52,115 bases of DNA from a virus. Taxonomy: Duplodnaviria > Caudoviricetes. The translations under genes and the position numbers were made by a program. Within the stretch, counting starts at the first letter, position 1. The number at the start of each line of letters is the position of its first letter. Shown piece after piece: positions 12,500-25,194 of the stretch. The notes below the pieces were generated by a model. That model saw nothing but the letters and a program-made list of their open reading frames with translations. It was not told the DNA's origin and searched no databases. Location: positions 1 through 52,115 of IMG/VR virus record IMGVR_UViG_3300020045_004852. One strand, 5' to 3'.

Positions 12500-12793
12500 A
12501 TGCCAGCCGCTGACAAACAAATCCATCCCAAGGTCTTGGCCGTGCCGCGTGTGACGCCCATCGACATCGAGGGAAATATCGTCCACACCGAAATCGTGAC
12601 GCACGTCACGTCGTCCGGCCAGACCCTGCGTTGGGCCGTGCTGACGCTGCAAAACGGCTATGCTGTCACGGGTGCGCCGTCGTATGAGATCGACGAGGAA
12701 ATCGGCAGAGAATACGCCATCATCAACGCCAAAGAAGCCATGTTTCCGCTAATGGCCTACGCGCTCAAACAGCGCCTGCACGACGCCAAGTAA
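12500..12793 (+). CDS. Gp49-family (Phage_gp49_66-like) protein, copy 1
   Basis: PRVTPIDIE...LTLQNGYAVTG...DEEIGREYA..NA...MFPLMAYALKQRLH. Confidence 0.85.
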   Translation: MPAADKQIHPKVLAVPRVTPIDIEGNIVHTEIVTHVTSSGQTLRWAVLTLQNGYAVTGAPSYEIDEEIGREYAIINAKEAMFPLMAYALKQRLHDAK

Positions 12794-12796
12794 ACC

Positions 12797-13075
12797 ATGA
12801 ACCTGATTCAAGCCCTGCCACCGCCATCACCGCAGAACACGCGGTTTATCGAATCAGAGCGCGACTACGACACCGTTGCGCAAGTCCAAGCGATCTACGA
12901 TGCTGGCGGCCCGCGCTTTCGCGTAACTGAATCCGCGTGCTTTGCTGAGTTGTACGCAATACACCGGCTGCAATTCGGCGGCGCACGATCAGCACTTTTC
13001 CGCGCAGCAGTAGAGCGGTTGAAGCTGGCTATGGCCGAACACCTGGCCATCATCAACCCCATCGACAACGACTGA
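12797..13075 (+). CDS. Hypothetical protein
   Basis: 92-aa ORF starting 3 nt after the previous stop. Confidence 0.65.
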   Translation: MNLIQALPPPSPQNTRFIESERDYDTVAQVQAIYDAGGPRFRVTESACFAELYAIHRLQFGGARSALFRAAVERLKLAMAEHLAIINPIDND

Positions 13076-13113
13076 TACAATTCCGTCTCCACAAACTTTC
13101 TGGAAAAATTTAA

Positions 13114-13560
13114 ATGCAACAGTACATCGGCACCAAAATCATCAAAGCCAAACCCATGACGCGCCAGGCGTACAACGACCTGCGGGGCTGGGCGCTGCCC
13201 GCTGACGAAAACGGGGCTGACGACGGCTACCTGGTCGAGTACACCGACGGCGGAAAAGCCAATCATGACGACTTCGATGGCTACATCAGCTGGTCGCCGA
13301 AAGAGCAGTTTGACAATGCTTACCAAGCCACGGATGGCCTAACCTTTGGCTTGGCCGCAGATGCCACAAAGAAGGGCGCCAAGGTGCAGCGCGCTGGCTG
13401 GAACGGCAAAGGCATGCATGCCGAATATGTCGGCGCCGGGACATTCAATGGCGCACCCATGAACCCCTACTGGGTCATCAAAAACCCGGATGGCAGTTAC
13501 TCGACGTGGGCACCGAGCGGCTCTGACTCGCTGGCCACCGATTACATGATCGTCGCGTAA
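13114..13560 (+). CDS. DUF2829 / Tad2-like protein with an extra N-terminal YIGTK domain
   Basis: C-terminal LTFGLA...KVQRAGWNGKGM...WAPSGSDSLATDY; N-terminal YIGTKIIKAKPM...GYLVEY...SWSPKEQFDNAY. Confidence 0.85.
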   Translation: MQQYIGTKIIKAKPMTRQAYNDLRGWALPADENGADDGYLVEYTDGGKANHDDFDGYISWSPKEQFDNAYQATDGLTFGLAADATKKGAKVQRAGWNGKGMHAEYVGAGTFNGAPMNPYWVIKNPDGSYSTWAPSGSDSLATDYMIVA

Positions 13561-13583
13561 GCAAAAAACCAGGATAAACCAAA

Positions 13584-13956
13584 ATGCCCGACAACGAAAT
13601 TGAAAACGAAATCCAGGCCAAAGGCTTGACCGCGCCGCGTGCTCGCTGCAGATATTGAGGTGAATATCTGCAGCGAGCACTATTTTACAGCCGCCGATGG
13701 TGTTTTTGGCGTCGCCGTGAATGATGGCGGTGTTCCTGCTGGTTACGCGCTCGATGAGCCAGCATCCCTGCACCTCCTGACCTTCTGCGTCCTTGTCCTG
13801 CGCAACGGCTTCACTGTGACCGGCGAGTCGGCTTGCGTCAGCCCGGAAAACTTTGACGCGGAGCTGGTGCGCAAGCGCGCCCGCAAAAATGCCATCGATA
13901 AGTTGCATCCCTTGATGGCCTACGCGCTCAAACAGCGCATGCACGACGCCAAGTAG
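13584..13956 (+). pseudogene. Gp49-family protein, copy 2, frameshifted near 13640 (or expressed from GTG 13639)
   Basis: ATG 13584 gives MPDNEIENEIQAKGLTAPR and then goes out of frame; the +1 frame has ADIEVNI...LRNGFTVTGESACVSPENFDAE. Confidence 0.7.
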
Positions 13957-13975
13957 GTCGCCCGGTGCCCGCAAG

Positions 13976-14000
13976 AGCCGCCCACTGAGGCGGCTTTTTT
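13976..14000 (+). terminator. Rho-independent terminator
   Basis: agccgcc...ggcggct stem plus T-tract. Confidence 0.85.
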
Positions 14001-14111
14001 GCGCCTGTTCGCTTGCAACCCATTGATCCAAAAGCAAAACGCGAATTCGCGCTTTGGCCGCCGCGCACCGCCGGGCCGCCCGCCAATCTGGTGGAATTCC
14101 ACCGAATTAGA

Positions 14112-14178
14112 ACCGGCGTGCTGGCCACCGGCGTGCTGGCCACCGGCGTGCTGGCCACCGGCGTGCTGGCCACCGGCG
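14112..14178. repeat. 15-bp tandem repeat ACCGGCGTGCTGGCC, four full copies plus 7 nt
   Basis: Perfect intergenic copies seen directly. Confidence 0.95.
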
Positions 14179-14229
14179 GGTTTTTCCTGCTTCGCGGAAA
14201 AACCCTTGCTTAGCCTGGTGCGAAACCGC

Positions 14230-14258
14230 TTGCCAGCCGTGAGTGCTGGGGGTAAAAT
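14230..14258 (+). promoter_or_regulatory. Sigma70 promoter for c4-like RNA 1 and the antirepressor operon
   Basis: TTGCCA-N17-TAAAAT. Confidence 0.75.
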
Positions 14259-14263
14259 GTCAT

Positions 14264-14391
14264 CGCTGCAATATTTTTTGCAGCACCGGCTTGGACTCCG
14301 GTTTCACAGCGGGGCTATGCCTGCAACCTGGCGGAATTGTGCCGTTAGTCCAAATCCCGAAAGGGAAGGTTGCAGGTATAGCCTTTTTTTT
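14264..14391 (+). ncRNA. c4-type antisense RNA 1 with upstream a1/b1 target leader
   Basis: 17-bp outer stem 14313-14329/14367-14383, hairpin loop AATTGTG, linker AGTCCAA, GAAA tetraloop hairpin, U8; complementary TTGGACT and CACAG lie upstream. Confidence 0.8.
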
Positions 14392-14399
14392 GGCTAAAT

Positions 14400-14987
14400 A
14401 TGAGCTTCAATCAAATTTTTGGGTTAACTCCAGTTAACCGAACGGCGTCCCTTGTCACTTCTCAGCGCGGCGCTGCACAAGAAGATGGCTCGATGGGCAA
14501 GGACGAGTTAATGGCCATGCTCAAACTCATGGAGCGCAAGAGTCGGCTACTGAAAAGAGTGCTGGCTATCGGCACAAAATCCCAACACAACAACGCAAAA
14601 CGCCGATTTAAAAAAGGCATCAGCAGCAAATTCAGGGATTCGCGGGCACTGGCCGAATACACGCGGCTGGGCGATCAGATGCAAATTTTCTATCGGAGAA
14701 TTGCCGAGATTCAAGCCGCAGCAAACGAGATCATGGCCACGACAAAAGCCCATCGCCGCCTTATCGCCGATCAGCTCCAAACAGCTATTTCAGCCGAAGG
14801 TGTAGAGGGTGATTTGCGTAAGTGGGTGCTAAAGCGTGACGGTTACCAGTGTTTGACCTGTTGCCTGCCGAGAGCGCCAAACCAGAACCTGCTGGCCGCC
14901 CGCATTACCCAATCAGGCGAAGCTGTAGCGGAAAACCTGCAAACAATCTGCCTGGCCTGCTGGGAATCAGCGGCAAGTCAAAAATAA
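14400..14987 (+). CDS. Protein with a degenerate C-terminal HNH-like zinc domain (start 14400 or 14493)
   Basis: RKWVLKRDGYQCLTC...ENLQTICLAC matches the HNH scaffold but lacks the catalytic His. Confidence 0.7.
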   Translation: MSFNQIFGLTPVNRTASLVTSQRGAAQEDGSMGKDELMAMLKLMERKSRLLKRVLAIGTKSQHNNAKRRFKKGISSKFRDSRALAEYTRLGDQMQIFYRRIAEIQAAANEIMATTKAHRRLIADQLQTAISAEGVEGDLRKWVLKRDGYQCLTCCLPRAPNQNLLAARITQSGEAVAENLQTICLACWESAASQK

Positions 14988-15020
14988 AAAGGTGGCGTGG
15001 CCGCACCTTCTATCGGCCAC

Positions 15021-15046
15021 AAAAAAGCCCGCGTGCAAGGCGGGCT
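15021..15046 (-). terminator. Terminator oriented against the local gene direction
   Basis: A6 followed by a gcccgc/gcgggc stem; U-tract only on the minus strand. Confidence 0.6.
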
Positions 15047-15068
15047 GATTTGAAGCAAGGAAACGAAA

Positions 15069-15554
15069 ATGAAGAACCCTATTGTACCTCATGGCGCGAC
15101 AGTCGCAACCATGACCAGCCGAGAAATCGCGGAACTGACGGGAAAGCAACATCAGCACGTCAAACGTGACATTGAAGGCATGCTTGCGGTTACAGAATTT
15201 GCAAGCCATTGCACGCAAGCGCCCTACCAAGACAGCATGAACCGACCGCAGCAGGAATTCATTCTGCATGGTGCGTTTGTTGGCTTGATTCTTGAAAAAT
15301 ACAAGGGTTTGGCGCGAGTCCCGAACCGACTCCAAGAGGATGCCGCACTCAAAACCATTGAGCAACTGCTGGGCATCCAGTTAATCCGGCAGTTTTCCGT
15401 CTTGTCGTATCGAATTGATGGCTATCACGCTGCAACAAATACAGCCTACGAAATTGACGAGCCGGAGCACAAATCCCGAAAAAAACAGGACGCCATCCGT
15501 CAGCGGGAAATTGAGGCGGCCATCGGCTGTACGTTCGTTCGAATCAGCCTGTAA
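15069..15554 (+). CDS. Rha-family N-terminal domain fused to a DUF559/Vsr-like nuclease domain
   Basis: TMTSREIAELTGKQHQHVKRDIE; C-terminal RQFSV..YRIDGY....AYEIDE.EH.....D..RQ..I....C.FVRI. Confidence 0.8.
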   Translation: MKNPIVPHGATVATMTSREIAELTGKQHQHVKRDIEGMLAVTEFASHCTQAPYQDSMNRPQQEFILHGAFVGLILEKYKGLARVPNRLQEDAALKTIEQLLGIQLIRQFSVLSYRIDGYHAATNTAYEIDEPEHKSRKKQDAIRQREIEAAIGCTFVRISL

Positions 15555-15563
15555 GGAGCCATC

Positions 15564-16256
15564 ATGAATCTCACAACCAAATCCCAAGCCGCAACCATGA
15601 CTTCGCGGGAAATCGCAGAGTTGACTGGTAAGCGCCATTTCCATGTCACCGCCGACATTGAAAAGATGCTCCTTGAACTTAGCGAAGATGCCACGGCTTT
15701 TCGTGGCATCTATCTGGACTCCATGAACCGCCAGCAGACCGAATACCACCTTGACCGTGAGCTGACCGAGACCCTGCTGACCGGCTACAGCGCCGTTTTG
15801 CGCCGCAAAGTCATTGCCCGCTGGCGCGAACTGGAAGCTGCGCCTCAGTTCTCCATTCCGCAAACCTATTCGCAGGCCATGCGTTTGGCCGCCGACCAAG
15901 CCGACCAAATCGAAGCGCAACAGGCGCCGCTTGCGCTGGCCGCGCCCAAGGTGGCCTTCGTTGACAAATACGTCGAATCCACGGGGTTAAAAGGATTCCG
16001 CGAAGTCGCCAAGCCGCTGAAGGCCAGTGAGCCGCGATTCCGTGAATTTCTGGTGGCTGAAAAAATCATGTACCGCCTGGGCGGCGAGTGGGCGGCATAC
16101 GCACAACACATTGACATTGGGCGTTTTGAGGTCAAGACTGGCACCAGCGAGGCCAGCCAGCACGCCTTTACACGCACGATGTTCACCGGCAAAGGGGTGG
16201 AGTGGGTTGCGGGCTTGTGGGCTGTGCATTGCTTGCGTGGCGAGGTGGCCGCATGA
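15564..16256 (+). CDS. Phage antirepressor (Rha N-terminus plus KilAC/ANT C-terminus)
   Basis: MTSREIAELTGKRH...IPQTYSQAMRLAAD...APKVAFVDKYV...TMFTGKGVEWV. Confidence 0.9.
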   Translation: MNLTTKSQAATMTSREIAELTGKRHFHVTADIEKMLLELSEDATAFRGIYLDSMNRQQTEYHLDRELTETLLTGYSAVLRRKVIARWRELEAAPQFSIPQTYSQAMRLAADQADQIEAQQAPLALAAPKVAFVDKYVESTGLKGFREVAKPLKASEPRFREFLVAEKIMYRLGGEWAAYAQHIDIGRFEVKTGTSEASQHAFTRTMFTGKGVEWVAGLWAVHCLRGEVAA

Positions 16257-17122
16257 GCTTTCAGGCTATCGCGTGGGCTGTGCGTCAAAAGCTGCCATGC
16301 ACCCAAAAAATCGTCCTGGTCATGCTGGCCGACCGACACAACGGCGACACAGGGCGCTGCGACCCTTCACATGATCGGCTGGCCGATGACTGCGGCCTGA
16401 CGCGCCGATCAGTCATGGATCAGCTTGCCAAACTTGATTCAACCGGATTCATCCGCACACATCACCGCGTTATCGGCAAACTGAAAACATCAAACCAGTA
16501 CACGCTGATGCTGGGTTTTGGCGTTCCTGCCGATGTGAAGGAGTTTCACATCGAAGTGCAACAGGTTCCACAGGTAGTGCAACAGGTTCACCAGGGTAGT
16601 GAACATGTTGCACATAAACCAGGAAAAGAACCAGTAAAAGAACCTATTAAAGAAAAGAAGAGCGCTGACGCGCCAGCGCCACGCCCGGCAAAGGCTGGAT
16701 TTCCAATTCCTGATGGCATCGAATCGCAGGCGTGGGCCGATTGGATGTTGGTGCGCAAGGCCAAGCGCGCACCGATGACGGAAACGGCGTGGAATCGTCA
16801 CGGGCGCGAAGCAGAGAAGGCCGGGATTAGCCCGAACGCCGCCGTTGTGGCTTGCGTCGAGTACAACTGGCAGGGCTTTGATGCTGGCTGGTATGCCGAG
16901 CGCCAAGCCCGTCAAGCGCTGGCAGAGTCCGGCCAGCGGCCAGCTCCACGCAGCACCGCCCCCGCCGAGACTTTCCGCGAACGCGACGCCCGTCTGCAAC
17001 GCGAAGAATGGGAGCGCAGCACGGGCAAGAAGTGGCCTGAACAAGACTTGCCCGCCAGCGCTCGCCGTCAGCCAGCCCCAGCCCCGTACACACTTGAAGC
17101 TGAAACCAGGAGACTCGCATGA
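16253..17122 (+). CDS. Replication initiator (lambda O-like, N-terminal HTH)
   Basis: KIVLVMLAD...CDPSHDRLADDCGLTRRSV HTH; C-terminal WADWMLVRKAKRAPMT...WQGF; internal iterons. Confidence 0.85.
   Translation: MSFQAIAWAVRQKLPCTQKIVLVMLADRHNGDTGRCDPSHDRLADDCGLTRRSVMDQLAKLDSTGFIRTHHRVIGKLKTSNQYTLMLGFGVPADVKEFHIEVQQVPQVVQQVHQGSEHVAHKPGKEPVKEPIKEKKSADAPAPRPAKAGFPIPDGIESQAWADWMLVRKAKRAPMTETAWNRHGREAEKAGISPNAAVVACVEYNWQGFDAGWYAERQARQALAESGQRPAPRSTAPAETFRERDARLQREEWERSTGKKWPEQDLPASARRQPAPAPYTLEAETRRLA
16532..16660. other. Putative replication origin: iterons plus A-rich tract inside the initiator gene
   Basis: AGTGCAACAGGTTC at 16555 and 16576, an inverted copy GTGAACATGTTGCAC at 16599, a palindrome at 16532-16552, then a purine/A-rich run. 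Confidence 0.7.
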
Positions 17123-17622
17123 ACCAAGAAATGATCGTAGAGGTCACGACCTGCCCGAACATGGCCACATTCATCGACTGGCTTTTTGACCGCTTGCACA
17201 CCACATACGGTGCGTCGTGGAAGCGCCAGTTTGATGGCCTGCCCGAGTCCAGTGTGAAAAGCCAGTGGGGCTATGAGCTGGCCTGGGCGTTCGGCAGAAA
17301 AGAAGTGATCCGTTTTGCACTGGAAAACCTGCCCGAGCGCCCGCCGAACGGGATCGAGTTCCGCAACTTGTGCCGAAAAGCCCCGGCCCCGACTGTCGTG
17401 CTACTGCCTGAGCCAAAAGCCGACCCAGCCCGCGTCCGTGCCGCGCTCCAGACGATTCCACCGGCCCCAGTGGTCGGGCGGCTGGACTGGGCGCGGGCAC
17501 TGCAACGGCGCGACGAAGACAATCCTAAAAGCGTGACGCCGACGATTCGGAAAATGTACCGCGACGCGCTGGGGCTGAATAGAGTGATTCCAGTGGCGCA
17601 GGTTGAACCAGAAAATAATTGA
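17119..17622 (+). CDS. Replication protein P-like (helicase loader)
   Basis: LFDRLHTTYGASW...W...L...ERPPNGIEFRNLC; ATGA-coupled after the initiator. Confidence 0.7.
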   Translation: MNQEMIVEVTTCPNMATFIDWLFDRLHTTYGASWKRQFDGLPESSVKSQWGYELAWAFGRKEVIRFALENLPERPPNGIEFRNLCRKAPAPTVVLLPEPKADPARVRAALQTIPPAPVVGRLDWARALQRRDEDNPKSVTPTIRKMYRDALGLNRVIPVAQVEPENN

Positions 17623-17647
17623 AATTTAAAACAAACTGGTGTAAAAT
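17619..17647 (+). promoter_or_regulatory. Sigma70 promoter for c4-like RNA 2
   Basis: TTGAAA-N17-TAAAAT. Confidence 0.8.
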
Positions 17648-17653
17648 ATCAGC

Positions 17654-17776
17654 ACTGCAAATAATTGCAGTACCGGCTTGGCCGCCGGGTTTTAGCAGAG
17701 CTACACATGCGATCTGGCGGGTGCTGACCCGTTCGGCCAACCCCGAAAGGGGAGATCGCAGGTGTAGCTTTTTTTT
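17654..17776 (+). ncRNA. c4-type antisense RNA 2 with upstream a1/b1 target leader
   Basis: Outer stem 17699-17715/17753-17769, hairpin containing TGCTGA, linker CGGCCAA, CCCC-GAAA-GGGG, U8; complementary TTGGCCG and TAGCA lie upstream. Confidence 0.8.
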
Positions 17777-17785
17777 GGGTTCAAA

Positions 17786-18088
17786 ATGAACAAAAACGAA
17801 AATCAGCAAAAGCCACGGCTTCGCTGGAAAAAGAATGAGGCTCTGACGGGTTTGTCGCGAATTGGTGCCGGGCCACGCGGAAGTTTTTTGCATGATGGAG
17901 TGCGCAAATACGCATCCGTCTTGGCTCACTCGGTATTTATCCGAAATGGGAAGATGGGTTGGTATTGGGTTGCATCAAGCGGGACTGGAATCGCTTACAA
18001 AAATACGTGTGACGCTAAAGGGGTGACGGAAGCCGAAGCCAAAAAAGCGGCAATGGAATACGTTAAATGGTGCTTGGCAGGGAATTAA
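17786..18088 (+). CDS. Hypothetical basic protein downstream of c4-like RNA 2
   Basis: 100-aa ORF immediately after the U-tract. Confidence 0.7.
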   Translation: MNKNENQQKPRLRWKKNEALTGLSRIGAGPRGSFLHDGVRKYASVLAHSVFIRNGKMGWYWVASSGTGIAYKNTCDAKGVTEAEAKKAAMEYVKWCLAGN

Positions 18089-18090
18089 AA

Positions 18091-18723
18091 ATGGTAGCCC
18101 CAAGAATAATGGAAATATGCGAACTGGTCGCAAATATCTCGCCGACCGGCACAGTCGTCACTGCTGACGTTGCGGAAGCCGCTGGATGCGCAAGCCGTAA
18201 AGTGTCAAGCCTGCTGTCGCTGGCCGTGGCAAATGGCTTGATGACGGCAAATTATCAGACAACGCCGCTCAACTACACGCTAAAAGAAGACTGGCGGGAA
18301 ATTGCGCGAGTCAGCAACTGCCGACCGCCGACGATCATCGAAACGGTCTGCGCGCTGGCGCAAAAGAGCGGTGAAATCACGCCGATCCAGGCTGCAAATC
18401 AGCTGGACTGCACTGGCAGGCGGGCCTATGCGCGGCTGGCAACCGGCATGCAATACGGCTGGCTTACCCGCAAGCGTGACGGTCACGAAACCGTTTTCCG
18501 TGTCACGCAAGAATGGTTTAGGCATATCAACAACAACCTTGACAACCCCAGAATCATGGAGCTGGTTGCTGGGGCTGATGGCTGCACAGATACCGGCGAT
18601 GAATCTGAACATGGCGAGCCCGTCAAGCTGGTGATCGAATACGCTGGCCTGCCACCGCCCGGCCACCGGCGCCACTTGGGTGGGCATACTGCGCACAATC
18701 CTTGGGGCGGGGTGATGGTATGA
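18091..18723 (+). CDS. Protein with two putative winged-helix domains
   Basis: TADVAEAAGCASRKVSSLLS and TPIQAANQLDCTGRRAYARL are HTH-like segments. Confidence 0.65.
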   Translation: MVAPRIMEICELVANISPTGTVVTADVAEAAGCASRKVSSLLSLAVANGLMTANYQTTPLNYTLKEDWREIARVSNCRPPTIIETVCALAQKSGEITPIQAANQLDCTGRRAYARLATGMQYGWLTRKRDGHETVFRVTQEWFRHINNNLDNPRIMELVAGADGCTDTGDESEHGEPVKLVIEYAGLPPPGHRRHLGGHTAHNPWGGVMV

Positions 18724-19638: not shown

Positions 19639-19853
19639 CCGGCGAACAAGAAATTGCCGAAATCTGGCGCGCCGCAGAGGCCCGGCGCGATTCTGACCAG
19701 CCGCCAATCAGCACTCTAACGCAGCTCACTGAGGCTGAGGTGGATCGGGCGCATGAGCTGGGGTTGGAGATTCAAGCTGGGCGGGCGTGGTCGGCTGAAC
19801 AGGCCCGCGCCAGGCTGCTGAAAAAGCATGCGCTGCGCAGGGCGACGGCATGA
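19635..19853 (+). CDS. Hypothetical protein
   Basis: ATGA overlaps at both ends. Confidence 0.65.
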   Translation: MTGEQEIAEIWRAAEARRDSDQPPISTLTQLTEAEVDRAHELGLEIQAGRAWSAEQARARLLKKHALRRATA

Positions 19854-20401
19854 CGCGCAAATGCAAGGCGTGCCGGGCCACGTTTGTTCCGGCGCGCCCA
19901 ATGCAAGTGGCATGCTGCCCAGAATGCGCGATAGCTATTGCCGCCGCTGGGCGGGCGAAGCGTGAAAAATCCGCCGCCGTCGCTGACCGGCGCGAGACAA
20001 AGGCGAAGCTGGAAAATCTCAAATCTCGGGCGCAGTGGGCGAAAGAGGCGCAAGCCGCATTCAATTCATTTATCCGCGTCCGCGATGCTGACCAGCCCTG
20101 TATATCGTGCGGGCGCCATCACAATGGACAGTACCACGCTGGGCATTATCTGAGCGTCGGCGCCCGGCCAGAGTTGAGATTTGAGCCACTCAACGTCCAC
20201 AAGCAGTGCGCCCCATGCAACACCCACTTGTCGGGCAATGTCGTGCAATACCGCAAGGCGCTGATTGTCAAAATAGGGGTCGATCTGGTTGAGTGGATGG
20301 AAGGCCCGCACCCAGTGCGTCACTATGCGACACAAGAGCTGGCTGAAATAAAAAAGCTGTATGTGACAGCAAAACGTGAACTTTTGAAGGCTAGGGCATG
20401 A
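19850..20401 (+). CDS. ninG: NinG/Rap recombination endonuclease
   Basis: KCKAC...CCPEC, AQAAFNSFIRVRD...CISCG...HAGHYLSVGARPELRF...NVHKQCAPCNTHLSGN. Confidence 0.92.
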   Translation: MTRKCKACRATFVPARPMQVACCPECAIAIAAAGRAKREKSAAVADRRETKAKLENLKSRAQWAKEAQAAFNSFIRVRDADQPCISCGRHHNGQYHAGHYLSVGARPELRFEPLNVHKQCAPCNTHLSGNVVQYRKALIVKIGVDLVEWMEGPHPVRHYATQELAEIKKLYVTAKRELLKARA

Positions 20402-24597: not shown

Positions 24598-25194
24598 ATG
24601 AGCGCCGAATACCCCGAAAATCAAACCGAACTTCCGCTGGATGAAGAAGAATCCATGCTGCAACTGCGCCTGGCCGAAATCGCTGAAATCAAGAAGGCCA
24701 ATGCTATCAAGGCCCGTGCCGATGCGCTGGTGCCCGTTTTGGCCGCGATCAAAGAGCACGGATTTACCGCTGCTGAGCTGGGTTTCAAAAAATCAGCGCT
24801 GGCAGCCGCCGAAAAGAAGGCACCTGAAGTCGTCGGCGACGATGGCCGCAAAAAAGTTGCGCCGCTTTACCGCGACCCGGAAAGTGGTGCAACTTGGACG
24901 GGACGCGGCAAGACGCCGGGCTGGATGCAGCGCAAAATCGCTGCGGGCAAAATCCGTGATGATTTTCTGATCGACAAGCCGACTGCGCCGCCAGAATCCG
25001 GCCAGATTCTCCAAGGGCCAGAAACTGCTGGGCTGGACGTGGTTGCTTCGCCGGGCTTGCTGGGAGACCTGCCGAAAATCGACGAGCCGACCGCAGGTTG
25101 CATCAATGATCCGCAGCATAATGACGAGACTGGCTACGTTTACAGAACTGGGTCAAAAGCAGCCGACGGCGCCGACCCGTTCACGACCGCGTAA
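24598..25194 (+). CDS. hns: H-NS family (Bv3F-like) nucleoid/silencer protein with acidic extensions
   Basis: IKEHGFTAAELG...KVAPLYRDPESGATWTGRGKTPGWM DNA-binding motif. Confidence 0.9.
   Translation: MSAEYPENQTELPLDEEESMLQLRLAEIAEIKKANAIKARADALVPVLAAIKEHGFTAAELGFKKSALAAAEKKAPEVVGDDGRKKVAPLYRDPESGATWTGRGKTPGWMQRKIAAGKIRDDFLIDKPTAPPESGQILQGPETAGLDVVASPGLLGDLPKIDEPTAGCINDPQHNDETGYVYRTGSKAADGADPFTTA

What the first reader, a model, noticed from the sequence alone, without database searches (positions are those of the whole stretch)
14230..17776. Two paralogous c4-type antisense RNA switches with different, co-varying seed/target codes
Seen: 14230-14391 and 17619-17776 share one architecture. 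Each has a sigma70 promoter, a CTGCAA..TTGCAG hairpin, a CCGG hairpin displaying site a1, site b1, then a three-way junction (17-bp stem, hairpin, linker, GAAA tetraloop hairpin) and U8. The stems differ in sequence but keep pairing. Seeds co-vary with their own leaders: copy 1 AGTCCAA/TTGGACT and TTGTG/CACAG; copy 2 CGGCCAA/TTGGCCG and TGCTG/TAGCA. Known: P1/P7 C4, P4 CI and N15 CA RNAs are processed from a leader and repress their own operon by bipartite pairing, controlling antirepressor or immunity functions. Inference: this phage runs orthogonal RNA switches, one gating the HNH-Rha-Ant-replication operon and one gating the nin region. With no visible CI, they may be the main regulatory or immunity layer.
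Basis: partly seen in the sequence, partly recalled or inferred. Interest (0 to 1): 0.8.

Follow-up and report, generated by a model that had tools for sequence, protein, structure and literature searches.

The report
Self-targeting c4-like terminator RNAs in phage
Two related small RNA genes in this phage each carry a promoter, two short "address" sequences, the matching "reader" sequences inside a branched hairpin, and a transcription stop signal, and they belong to a widespread but uncatalogued relative of the c4 RNAs that control phages P1 and P4.

Summary
Windows 14230-14391 and 17619-17776 are paralogs with one architecture: a promoter-like site, hairpin, a1 hairpin, b1, a 16-18-bp stem enclosing a b' hairpin, an a' linker and a GAAA hairpin, then U8.

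They belong to a real RNA family. 72 of 87 pattern-fetched viral loci match my covariance model, giving 60 distinct sequences. The family also occurs in Ralstonia Gervaisevirus phages.

The a1:a' pairing holds in 60 of 60 sequences across 10 codes. The b1:b' pairing holds in 49 of 50. G-U pairs place the structure on the + strand RNA.

No Rfam model (C4, c4-a1b1, isrK) matches, although all three detect P1 and P4 controls. The hairpin order is permuted relative to C4, the closing stem plus U-run is an intrinsic terminator, b1 abuts that stem in 50 of 50, and there is no a2/b2 site.

My reading is a compact c4-type unit that targets only its own leader. I infer that cis a1b1:b'a' pairing in the nascent RNA delays terminator closure, and that the terminated RNA acting in trans restores termination, much as in P4 CI. 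This mechanism is untested.

The "main immunity layer" idea is not supported. Cultured carriers are described as lytic, and the strict pattern found only 3 hits in bacterial genomes. I rate this a new variant of a known kind.

The parts
14230..14258 (+). Copy 1 promoter-like site (-35 TTGCCA, 17-nt spacer, -10 TAAAAT)
   Evidence: 10 of 12 consensus matches. In relatives, a -10 hexamer with at least 5 of 6 matches starts 15-17 nt before a1 in 29 of 60 sequences.
14265..14284 (+). Copy 1 first hairpin (GCTGCAA / TTGCAGC). It is not conserved in most relatives.
   Evidence: Most relatives have the -10 element directly before the a1 hairpin instead.
14285..14302 (+). Copy 1 hairpin P2, with target site a1 (TTGGACT, 14291-14297) in its loop
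   Evidence: P2 pairs covary at 4 of 4 positions.
14305..14309 (+). Copy 1 target site b1 (CACAG), ending 2 nt from the long stem
   Evidence: The b1 site ends -1 to +2 nt from the stem in 50 of 50 sequences.
14311..14384 (+). Copy 1 c4-like three-way junction: long stem P3 (14311-14328 with 14368-14384), hairpin P4 (14330-14346, loop b' TTGTG 14337-14341), linker a' AGTCCAA (14347-14353), and GAAA hairpin P5 (14355-14366)
   Evidence: MFE fold, model R1 at 93.7 bits, and covariation.
14384..14391 (+). Copy 1 U8 tract. Together with P3 it forms an intrinsic-terminator shape.
   Evidence: 56 of 60 distinct relatives have a run of at least 5 T after the stem.
14400..14987 (+). First ORF after copy 1 (195 aa, no family hit). 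A GG-rich Shine-Dalgarno-like stretch lies directly after the U tract.
17619..17647 (+). Copy 2 promoter-like site (-35 TTGAAA, 17-nt spacer, -10 TAAAAT). The -35 overlaps the stop codon of ORF 17119-17622.
   Evidence: 10 of 12 consensus matches.
17654..17671 (+). Copy 2 first hairpin (ACTGCAA / TTGCAGT)
17673..17688 (+). Copy 2 hairpin P2, with a1 (TTGGCCG, 17678-17684) in its loop
17693..17697 (+). Copy 2 target site b1 (TAGCA; 6 bp if the preceding T is counted), abutting the long stem
17697..17769 (+). Copy 2 three-way junction: P3 (17697-17714 with 17754-17769, including the family's conserved A.G mismatch), P4 (17716-17733, loop b' TGCTG 17722-17726), a' CGGCCAA (17734-17740), and P5 CCCC-GAAA-GGGG (17741-17752)
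   Evidence: R1 at 113.4 bits.
17769..17776 (+). Copy 2 U8 tract
17786..18088 (+). First ORF after copy 2 (100 aa, no family hit). It opens a run of small ORFs that includes NinG (19850-20401).

Best explanation
Each locus is a complete small transcription unit with a sigma70-type promoter, a structured RNA of about 110-125 nt, and an intrinsic terminator. It belongs to an uncatalogued branch of the c4 / c4-a1b1 / isrK group of phage leader RNAs.

The 5' part carries two target sites: a1 in a YUNR-type hairpin loop, and b1 as a single strand. The 3' part is a c4-like three-way junction. It displays the complementary b' in a hairpin loop and a' in the adjoining linker. Its 16-18-bp closing stem, followed by U8, also serves as the terminator placed directly in front of the next gene's ribosome site.

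Shown here:
- The family exists and its helices covary.
- a1:a' and b1:b' covary as matched codes.
- b1 always abuts the terminator stem.
- There is no second (a2/b2) target.
- Paralogs within one genome carry different codes.

Inferred mechanism:
1. While the RNA is being made, a1/b1 pair in cis with b'/a' before the 3' strand of the closing stem exists.
2. This pairing traps the 5' strand of the stem in a closed loop. The b1:b' helix and a complete stem cannot coexist in one molecule, because b1 sits at the base of the stem and b' lies beyond its top.
3. Terminator closure is therefore delayed, and some polymerases read through into the operon.
4. Terminated transcripts have the stem closed, so their a'/b' and a1/b1 are free. 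They may also be trimmed to the junction, as C4 is.
5. These RNAs pair in trans with the a1/b1 of new nascent leaders. That blocks the cis helix, so the terminator forms and transcription stops.

The unit would thus shut its own operon down as its RNA, and the phage copy number, rises. The a/b code makes each unit answer only to its own RNA. In this genome, unit 1 gates the Rha/Ant/replication genes and unit 2 gates the nin-like region. These are the positions that tR1 and tR2 hold in lambda.
For: Family and structure:
- A pattern scan of viral contigs returned 92 stretches.
- 72 of the 87 stretches searched with model R1 scored 73.9-122.7 bits, and 15 did not match.
- On 50 sequences, 95.9% of cells pair, 19 of 37 pairs change on both sides, and 0 of 500 shuffles reach this. 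Slid controls pair at 38-43%.
- The invariant G-U pairs in P4 (50 of 50, two positions) fit only the + strand RNA.

Codes:
- The reverse complement of a' lies in the upstream hairpin loop in 60 of 60 distinct sequences. It is exact in 56 and has one mismatch in 4. There are 10 different a' codes.
- The a1:a' helix is 99.4% paired, with 4 of 7 pairs covarying.
- b1:b' scores at least 5 in 49 of 50 cognate pairs, against 25% of 2,366 non-cognate pairs.

Geometry and transcription signals:
- The 3' end of b1 lies -1 to +2 nt from the stem in 50 of 50.
- A run of at least 5 T follows the stem in 56 of 60.
- A -10 hexamer sits at a fixed spacing in 29 of 60, with 32 of 60 at any spacing against 12.6 in shuffles.

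Nascent-RNA folding:
- With the 3' stem strand removed, the RNAalifold consensus is the a1:a' helix.
- The MFE of that truncated RNA contains a1:a' in 32 of 50 sequences.
- Folds containing a1:a' beat folds with a1 blocked in 45 of 50, by a mean of -4.4 kcal/mol.
- In the full-length RNA the terminator fold wins by about 18 kcal/mol.

Targets and specificity:
- No bipartite a2/b2 site occurs elsewhere in the window. None occurs at a consistent place downstream in 57 relatives.
- Cognate duplex energies are -12.9 and -18.3 kcal/mol, against -10.5 and -6.3 for cross pairs.
- All three two-copy genomes carry different codes: the window, L062 and G004.

Precedents:
- P4 CI RNA is an Rfam C4 member with an isrK-type a1b1-plus-terminator leader. 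That it acts by premature termination is recalled, not read here.
- The terminated IsrK isoform acts in trans on its own read-through isoform (PMC4825925, passages).
Against: - No expression data exist. No RNA run holds the region, so the RNA ends, any processing and the termination efficiency are all unobserved.
- The direction of control is inference only.
- The full stem is about 18 kcal/mol more stable than the cis a1:a' fold. Zippering of the stem may therefore simply strip off the 5-7-bp b1:b' helix too fast to matter. The claimed steric exclusion rests on helix geometry, not on a pseudoknot-capable calculation.
- In the window's own two copies, the truncated-RNA MFE does not contain a1:a'. 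It is 2.6 and 0.1 kcal/mol less stable than the MFE.
- The copy-1 b pairing is weak (5 bp with one G-U, -3.5 kcal/mol). The copy-2 seed pairs better with the copy-1 b1 region (-6.3 kcal/mol), so the two units are separated mainly by the a site.
- Different codes in 3 of 3 two-copy genomes is expected by chance for diverged paralogs.
- The alignment is ascertained by a pattern that fixes TGGCGG, CCGTT, GCAGGT and AGC. Conservation of those letters therefore says nothing.
- No homology to C4 could be shown by covariance models in either direction.
Confidence: 0.5

Rival explanations
1. Classical c4 mode. The three-way junction is cut out of the leader, for example by RNase P. It then represses a separate target by pairing a'/b' with a2/b2 sites at a ribosome binding site, in the phage or in the host. 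The a1/b1 sites are only a decoy or a processing aid.
For: - The architecture parallels P1, where a1, b1, C4, a2 and b2 are annotated in that order.
- The junction (about 73 nt plus U's) is close in size to the 77-nt C4.
- A review passage describes c4 as blocking the ant ribosome site (PMC12197685).
Against: - Outside the two units, the 7-nt a sites occur at 4 (copy 1) and 12 (copy 2) other places in the window, and none has the matching b site nearby.
- In 57 relatives, the 300 nt downstream show only scattered matches with up to one mismatch, at no consistent position.
- Host genomes could not be searched for targets, because the host is unknown.
Confidence: 0.12
2. IsrK-like activation. 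Read-through transcripts fold into a form that hides the ribosome site lying directly after the U tract. The short terminated RNA pairs in trans with the long form and opens it, switching translation of the first gene on rather than switching transcription off.
For: - IsrK is a short terminated isoform that activates its own read-through isoform (PMC4825925, passages).
- The isrK Rfam model is an a1b1-type double hairpin plus terminator, and it matches the P1 and P4 leaders.
- In the family, the Shine-Dalgarno-like GGGG or GGAG begins 0-3 nt after the U tract, and the ATG follows about 8-10 nt later.
Against: - I found no conserved pairing partner for the ribosome site.
- The a and b sites do not overlap the ribosome site.
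- The isrK model itself does not match the window.
Confidence: 0.15
3. A cis-only element. The unit is a strong, unusually structured terminator and stable RNA. Its a1:a' and b1:b' contacts are folding intermediates or tertiary contacts, and read-through is set by a protein antiterminator of the N, Q or other type, with no RNA acting in trans.
For: - The units sit where lambda has tR1 and tR2, before the replication genes and before the nin region. The lambda map itself is recalled.
- Covariation alone cannot distinguish cis pairing from trans pairing.
- The conserved junction letters and the A.G mismatch in the stem (49 of 50) could be a protein-binding site.
Against: - b1:b' cannot be a tertiary contact of the folded terminator form, because b1 is at the base of a 16-18-bp stem and b' lies beyond its top (geometric inference).
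- The a1 loop keeps the YUNR-type CUUGG in 49 of 50 sequences. That motif is linked to fast bimolecular antisense pairing (recalled).
- No antiterminator protein was recognised among the ORFs scanned, though most have no family hit.
Confidence: 0.18
4. Chance similarity, or a DNA-level repeat with no RNA function.
For: Promoter-like and terminator-like matches are common in this region: 8 promoter-like sites against 5.5 expected, and 25 terminator-like sites against 19.1 expected.
Against: - 19 base pairs carry compensatory changes, and 0 of 500 shuffles reach this.
- Strand-specific G-U pairs are present.
- R1 E-values are 7e-26 and 5e-21.
- There are 60 distinct relatives.
Confidence: 0.01

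Closest known systems
C4 antisense RNA of phages P1/P7 with its a1/b1 and a2/b2 sites (Rfam RF01695 and RF03163)
   Same: - Both lie in a promoter-proximal leader.
- a1 sits in the loop of the second of two hairpins and b1 lies just after it.
- Both have a three-way junction with a closing stem of about 17 bp.
- b' is in a hairpin loop and is followed directly by the a' linker, which ends in CCAA(C). The C4 consensus reads CCGGUuUgCcAACCC; here it reads CCGUUCGNCCAACCCC.
- The a sites begin with UUGG.
- P1 and P7 differ in their codes and are heteroimmune (review passage).
   Different: - There is no covariance-model match in either direction.
- Hairpin order is permuted. C4 runs stem, tetraloop hairpin, b' hairpin, a', stem. 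Here it runs stem, b' hairpin, a', tetraloop hairpin, stem.
- Here the closing stem is followed by U8 and acts as a terminator shape.
- b1 abuts the stem here, whereas in P1 it lies 66 nt upstream.
- There is no a2/b2 site.
- The downstream genes are mostly replication-module genes, not icd-ant.
P4 CI RNA (immunity by premature transcription termination)
   Same: - It is an RNA from the leader of the operon that it controls.
- It is complementary to a site upstream of itself in the same transcript.
- P4's CI scores 74.9 bits with Rfam C4. Its leader carries an isrK-type a1b1-plus-terminator module at 60.8 bits.
- The proposed outcome, in which trans RNA causes termination, is the one reported for P4 (recalled, not read here).
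   Different: - P4 keeps the leader terminator and the C4 domain as separate elements about 100 nt apart, and it also has a downstream site (seqC, recalled).
- Here the two are fused into one element.
- R1 does not match P4; the best hit is 8.6 bits.
- P4 is a temperate satellite, whereas carriers of this family look lytic.
IsrK of the Gifsy-1 prophage (Rfam RF01394)
   Same: - It is a double hairpin with an a1-like loop, followed by an intrinsic terminator.
- One promoter gives both a short terminated RNA and a read-through mRNA.
- The short form acts in trans on the long form by competing with a cis structure (PMC4825925, passages).
   Different: - IsrK has no c4-like junction inside its terminator.
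- It activates translation.
- The model does not match the window.
N15 CA RNA (anti-immunity locus)
   Same: It is a small RNA processed from the leader of an antirepressor operon, and it controls that operon. I saw only the title of Ravin et al. 1999 in a reference list; the mechanism is recalled.
   Different: I did not fetch or compare it here. N15 is a temperate phage-plasmid.
Antisense-RNA-driven transcription attenuation of plasmid replication genes (pT181, pIP501; recalled)
   Same: A small RNA pairs with a nascent leader and decides between a read-through fold and a terminator fold. The result is control that senses copy number.
   Different: In those plasmids the regulator is a counter-transcript from the opposite strand. 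Here the regulator and the target lie on the same strand and in the same transcript.

Membership tests
Rfam C4 antisense RNA (RF01695) | Covariance-model score at or above the gathering score (45 bits) | tested here: not met
   - No hit at gathering on the whole window.
- No hit at E<=10 on 14000-18100.
- No hit at E<=10 on 14255-14400.
- No hit at gathering in 15 relatives totalling 147,497 bases.
- Positive controls: P1 at 68.8 bits and P4 at 74.9 bits.
Rfam C4 antisense RNA (RF01695) | Three-way junction in the order: closing stem, tetraloop hairpin, b' hairpin, a' linker, closing stem | tested here: not met
   The same parts are present, but in the order closing stem, b' hairpin, a' linker, tetraloop hairpin, closing stem.
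Rfam c4-a1b1 (RF03163) | Covariance-model score at or above the gathering score (46.7 bits) | tested here: not met
   No hit at E<=10. The control P1 scores 51 bits.
Rfam c4-a1b1 (RF03163) | Two adjacent hairpins, the second showing a1 (UUGGnnn) in its loop, with b1 following | tested here: met
   Both window copies have this arrangement. Across the family the second hairpin and b1 are universal, but the first hairpin is mostly absent.
Rfam isrK (RF01394) | Covariance-model score at or above the gathering score (50 bits) | tested here: not met
   No hit at E<=10. The control P4 scores 60.8 bits.
c4-type antisense system (functional definition) | Seeds a' and b' are complementary to sites a1 and b1 in the unit's own leader, and they co-vary | tested here: met
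   - a1:a' holds in 60 of 60 sequences, with 10 codes.
- b1:b' holds in 49 of 50 cognate pairs, against 25% of non-cognate pairs.
- 4 of 7 a pairs covary, and 99.4% of cells pair.
c4-type antisense system (functional definition) | A second target (a2/b2) at the ribosome site of the controlled gene | tested here: not met
   No bipartite site is present in the window. None lies at a consistent place within 300 nt downstream in 57 relatives.
c4-type antisense system (functional definition) | A mature RNA of about 77 nt released from the leader by processing (RNase P) | not testable with these tools
   No RNA run holds the region.
c4-type antisense system (functional definition) | Control of an antirepressor or immunity operon in a temperate phage | tested here: inconclusive
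   - A Rha+ANT ORF lies 1.2 kb after copy 1.
- In relatives the first downstream genes are DUF1376 (a cluster of 19 of 56), Rha, KilA-N, AP2, DnaT and a helicase.
- No integrase or CI was found among the ORFs scanned.
- There are only 3 hits in bacterial genomes.
Intrinsic (Rho-independent) terminator | A G+C-rich stem whose base is followed at once by a U tract | tested here: met
   A GC-rich base of the stem followed by U8 is present in both copies. 56 of 60 relatives have a run of at least 5 T. The actual activity was not tested. The branched 45-nt insertion is unusual for a terminator.

The most novel reading that the evidence does not exclude
These units form an RNA-only, self-timed attenuation cascade in a lytic phage. 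Each unit's own terminated leader RNA flips later copies of the same leader from a cis anti-terminator fold to a three-way-junction terminator. Mutually orthogonal a/b codes let several such timers run side by side. Together they would do the job that protein antiterminators and their terminators (tR1, tR2) do in lambda, and would work as counters of phage genome copy number.
Probability: 0.3. Interest if true: 0.8.

Novelty: new variant of a known kind. Interest (0 to 1): 0.62.

Why it matters
c4-type RNAs are the textbook case of RNA-based phage immunity, but they are known almost only from temperate enterobacterial elements such as P1, P7, P4 and N15.

This family shows that the same address-and-reader logic exists in a compact form, in which the regulator is also the terminator and the only target is its own leader. 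It is spread through many uncultured phages and through one cultured group, the Ralstonia Gervaisevirus phages. It occurs in apparently lytic genomes and often in two differently coded copies.

If the proposed mechanism holds, three things follow:
- It is a natural, programmable and orthogonal RNA-only transcription switch of about 100 nt.
- It suggests a role for the long-unexplained a1/b1 sites of P1 and P4.
- It explains how some phages time their early operons without a recognised repressor or antiterminator.

At the least, it is a well-supported candidate for a new Rfam family in the C4 clan.

Tried and rejected
Searches and checks that gave nothing:
- Rfam at gathering and at E<=10 gave only chance-level hits (Trp_leader, BcKCsr7, Plastid-ycf2 and others, all far below their cut-offs).
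- I guessed RF03162 as the accession for c4-2; it is TD-2 and gave no match. I could not confirm whether c4-2 is in this Rfam copy. Its description is in supplements of PMC5737381, which are closed. The same applies to the c4 and c4-a1b1 text in the supplement of PMC2864571. Those supplements may describe variants close to this one.
- Model R1 does not recognise P1 C4 or P4 CI. On P1 it gave a 6.3-bit local alignment of the b'/a' module at E=0.85, and on P4 the best hit was 8.6 bits. Common descent with C4 therefore remains unproven.
- blastn of copy 1 against the phage collection gave no match. An AT-rich relative also gave none.
- The look-up of sequencing runs listed no RNA holder. It listed three DNA runs with small shares of 0.10-0.16, which I did not lay.
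- I looked for a2/b2 sites and found none. I also considered the UUGG or AUGG just after the U tract as a half a2 site, and rejected it because it gives only 3-5 bp.
- I considered the minus-strand ORFs 12895-13326 and 13339-14037 as a possible divergent repressor. I rejected this because the + strand there encodes a Tad2-like protein and two gp49/66-family proteins.
- I considered a leader peptide. ORFs 13999-14397 and 14243-14437 overlap the RNA and have no support.
- Literature searches gave no paper describing a terminator-fused c4 variant: 'c4-a1b1' and 'c4-2', 'c4 antisense RNA' with phage and antirepressor, isrK/anrP, N15/CA RNA, '224 candidate structured RNAs', Ralstonia phage GP4/Gervaisevirus, and 'c4-like' with antisense RNA. 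The library lacks most subscription journals.

Full report
**What is in the window.**

In order, each stretch has:
- a promoter-like site with 10 of 12 consensus matches (14230-14258 and 17619-17647);
- a CTGCAA/TTGCAG hairpin;
- a CCGG hairpin whose loop carries a1 (TTGGACT or TTGGCCG);
- a short single strand carrying b1 (CACAG or TAGCA);
- a 16-18-bp stem enclosing a hairpin whose loop carries b' (TTGTG or TGCTG);
- a linker carrying a' (AGTCCAA or CGGCCAA);
- a GAAA-tetraloop hairpin;
- eight T residues.

An ATG follows 9 nt after the T tract in copy 1 and 10 nt after it in copy 2. The two stretches align at 78% mean column identity. Each folds to -61.8 kcal/mol, with z-scores of -5.9 and -5.3, and 0 of 200 shuffles fold as well.

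**It is a family, not a coincidence.**
- blastn of copy 2 found an 80%-identical stretch in 18 Ralstonia phage records of the genus Gervaisevirus, in an unannotated gap between hypothetical genes.
- Three short conserved blocks served as a pattern for a scan of viral contigs, which returned 92 stretches.
- A covariance model (R1) built from 50 of them was run on 87 of the 92 loci. The other five are IMG/VR loci whose element, as printed, matches that of phages GP4 and Alix. 72 loci scored 73.9-122.7 bits. The 15 that did not match also lack the upstream hairpin and the T tract by eye.
- After removing duplicates there are 60 distinct sequences, the two window copies included.
- In the window, R1 finds only the two copies, at 113.4 and 93.7 bits, plus their weak antisense echoes.

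**Covariation.** Counts were made on the 50-sequence alignment.
- 95.9% of 1,847 cells form standard pairs.
- 19 of 37 pairs change on both sides.
- No shuffle out of 500 reaches any of the five measures.
- Sliding the 3' partners by 1-3 columns drops pairing to 38-43%.
- Two invariant G-U pairs in the inner hairpin, and 13 U-G pairs in the long stem, would be C.A mismatches on the other strand. The structure therefore belongs to the + strand RNA.
- The pattern itself fixes TGGCGG, CCGTT, GCAGGT and AGC, so conservation of those letters is not evidence. The covarying positions lie outside them.
- An A.G mismatch in the middle of the long stem is present in 49 of 50 sequences. Copy 1 is the exception, with C-G.

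**The seed and target codes.**
- The exact reverse complement of the 7-nt a' linker lies in the loop of the upstream hairpin in 56 of 60 sequences. The other 4 have one mismatch. There are ten different a' words.
- In the alignment this helix is 99.4% paired, and 4 of its 7 pairs covary.
- For b, I scored the best contiguous duplex between the 13 nt before the long stem and the inner hairpin loop. 49 of 50 cognate pairs score at least 5 (mean 6.2). Only 25% of 2,366 non-cognate pairs do so (mean 4.1). There are 36 different loop sequences.
- The 3' end of b1 lies -1 to +2 nt from the first base of the long stem in 50 of 50.
- The a1 loop reads CUUGG in 49 of 50. This fits the YUNR U-turn motif of fast-pairing antisense loops; the motif and its role are recalled, not tested.

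**Transcription signals.**
- Without any filter on the tail, 56 of 60 distinct family sequences have a run of at least 5 T within 14 nt after the stem.
- A -10 hexamer with at least 5 of 6 matches lies upstream in 32 of 60, against 12.6 in shuffles. In 29 of these it starts 15-17 nt before a1, so the RNA should begin at the base of the a1 hairpin.
- The window copies and the Ralstonia phage element carry one extra hairpin between the -10 and that point.
- In 57 relatives with enough flank, 56 have an ORF of at least 40 aa starting within 90 nt. Most start about 19-21 nt after the stem, preceded by GGGG or GGAG directly after the U tract.

**Comparison with known families.** Rfam release 15 gives nothing for these RNAs:
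- 0 matches at gathering on the whole window;
- no c4-clan or isrK match at E<=10 on 4.1 kb;
- no such match at E<=10 on the 146 nt of copy 1;
- only a tRNA in 15 relatives.

The same tool finds the controls. On P1 it scores C4 at 68.8 bits, c4-a1b1 at 51 bits and isrK at 35 bits. On P4 it scores C4 at 74.9, isrK at 60.8 and c4-a1b1 at 44.1 bits. In the reverse direction, R1 does not find P1 or P4.

The printed C4 consensus nevertheless shows the same parts:
- a closing stem of about 17 bp;
- a tetraloop hairpin;
- a hairpin with b' in its loop, followed at once by the a' linker (CCGGUuUgCcAACCC, against CCGUUCGNCCAACCCC here);
- upstream, two hairpins, the second showing a1 (UUUGGCAG).

The differences are:
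- the order of the two inner hairpins;
- the U tract after the closing stem;
- the position of b1, which abuts the stem here but lies 66 nt upstream in P1;
- the absence of a2/b2.

In P1 and P4, an isrK-type terminator hairpin stands between b1 and C4. Here the C4-like junction takes that place. A more divergent copy in locus L062 has an inner hairpin CUGGU...CCAGC, closer to the P1 C4 sequence than the main family is.

**No second target.** Outside the two units, the a-site words occur 4 times (copy 1) and 12 times (copy 2) in the window, and none has the matching b word nearby. Downstream of 57 relatives there are only scattered matches with up to one mismatch, at no consistent position.

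**Context.**
- The + strand is the coding strand from about 12131 onward. Upstream of copy 1 lie a Tad2-like ORF and two gp49/66-family ORFs. Copy 1 is therefore not at a divergent repressor-operator region.
- After copy 1 come a 195-aa ORF with no family hit, a terminator-like hairpin, a Rha+DUF559 ORF, a Rha+ANT ORF, an O-like replication initiator and a 167-aa ORF.
- Copy 2 follows, and after it come small ORFs including NinG.
- The virion genes are P22-like.
- In relatives, the first downstream gene falls into a DUF1376-type cluster in 19 of 56. The others are Rha, KilA-N, AP2, Lin1244_N+DnaT, helicase or DUF559 proteins, or small unknowns.
- The stricter pattern matches 74 of the 92 viral loci, but only 3 contigs, all from MAGs, in 185,579 species-representative genomes.
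- In the phage collection, only the Ralstonia phages and two metagenomic records carry the element. One of those phages is used in a 'lytic Ralstonia phage cocktail'; I saw only the title and the start of the abstract.

**Several copies per genome.**
- I searched five further records in full. Four have one copy. G004 has two, about 8 kb apart, with codes TTGGCCG/CACGGA and TTGGAGG/ATCTA.
- Locus L062 has two copies 300 nt apart, separated by one small ORF, with codes TTGGCGG/TAGGCA and TTGGTCG/GGTGGT.
- With the window, that makes 3 of 3 two-copy genomes with different codes. Given ten codes in the family, this is not significant on its own.
- In the window, cognate a+b duplex energies are -12.9 and -18.3 kcal/mol. 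Cross pairs give -10.5 and -6.3, so discrimination rests mainly on the a site.

**How it most likely works.** Two things follow from the anatomy.
1. b1 sits at the base of a 16-18-bp stem, and b' lies beyond its top on a 5-6-bp hairpin. One molecule therefore cannot have both the full stem and the b1:b' helix. The pairing is either an alternative fold or it is intermolecular. This is geometric inference, not a computation.
2. The a1/b1 and b'/a' segments are all transcribed before the 3' strand of the stem.
   - With that strand removed, the consensus fold is the a1:a' helix.
   - The MFE then contains a1:a' in 32 of 50 sequences.
   - Folds with a1:a' beat folds with a1 blocked in 45 of 50, by a mean of -4.4 kcal/mol.
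   - The full-length terminator fold is about 18 kcal/mol better still.

I therefore propose a kinetic switch. The cis helix holds the 5' stem strand in a closed loop and delays terminator completion, which allows read-through. A terminated RNA has its stem closed and its seeds free. It pairs in trans with a1/b1 of later nascent leaders and so restores termination.

This is the outcome reported for P4 CI (recalled). It uses the same short-isoform-on-long-isoform logic shown for IsrK (passages). It also resembles plasmid attenuation by countertranscripts (recalled). It would make each unit a self-limiting, dose-sensing gate.

The weak points are:
- there are no expression data;
- the large energy advantage of the stem may let it displace the cis helix at once;
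- in the two window copies, the a1:a' fold is not the truncated MFE.

I put 0.5 on this mechanism. The rest is split between an IsrK-like activator, a cis-only terminator read through with protein help, and a classical c4 mode with an unseen target.

**Novelty.** The logic is that of c4-type RNAs. The form is not in Rfam, and I found it in none of the papers I could search. What is new is the permuted junction fused to the terminator, the restriction to a self target, and the occurrence in apparently lytic phages. I rate it a new variant of a known kind.

Noticed in passing
window 14112-14178: There are 4.5 perfect tandem copies of a 15-bp unit (ACCGGCGTGCTGGCC). The array ends about 50 nt upstream of the copy-1 -35 hexamer. 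It could be an array of binding sites for a regulator, or a set of origin iterons.
   Followed up: partly
window 13114-13560 (+), 12500-12793 (+), 13639-13956 (+): A Tad2-like (Thoeris anti-defence 2) domain ORF, Pfam E=1.2e-18, is flanked by two N4 gp49 / Sf6 gp66-family ORFs. They lie on the + strand just upstream of copy 1. The longer minus-strand ORFs in this region are therefore spurious.
   Followed up: partly
window 15026-15046: A GC-rich hairpin with T runs on both strands, a bidirectional terminator shape, lies between the 195-aa ORF and the Rha+DUF559 ORF. The first ORF after copy 1 may therefore be a separate short transcription unit.
   Followed up: no
window 24598-25194 (+): A phage-encoded protein with an H-NS C-terminal DNA-binding domain (Pfam E=1.1e-14).
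   Followed up: no
alignment A3 columns 50 and 114 (window 17705 with 17761): An A.G mismatch in the middle of the long stem is conserved in 49 of 50 family members. Copy 1 has C-G at this position, and the second copy in G004 has C.C there. It could be a protein-recognition site or a way to avoid RNase III.
   Followed up: partly
L062 7956-8068 (-) and 7543-7658 (-); G004:C1 7929-8054 and 54360-54479: Two other viral genomes also carry two units with different a/b codes. In L062 the units are in tandem, separated by one small Cys/His-rich ORF.
   Followed up: yes
L109 (phage P4) 8615-8692 (-); L096 (phage P1) 3231-3312 (+): The Rfam isrK model (a1b1-type double hairpin plus terminator) matches the leaders upstream of P4 CI (60.8 bits, above its cut-off of 50) and of P1 C4 (35 bits). 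Classical c4 systems therefore also have a terminator just after b1.
   Followed up: partly
window 13639-13680: A perfect 18-bp inverted repeat with a 6-nt loop lies at the start of the second gp49/66-family ORF.
   Followed up: no
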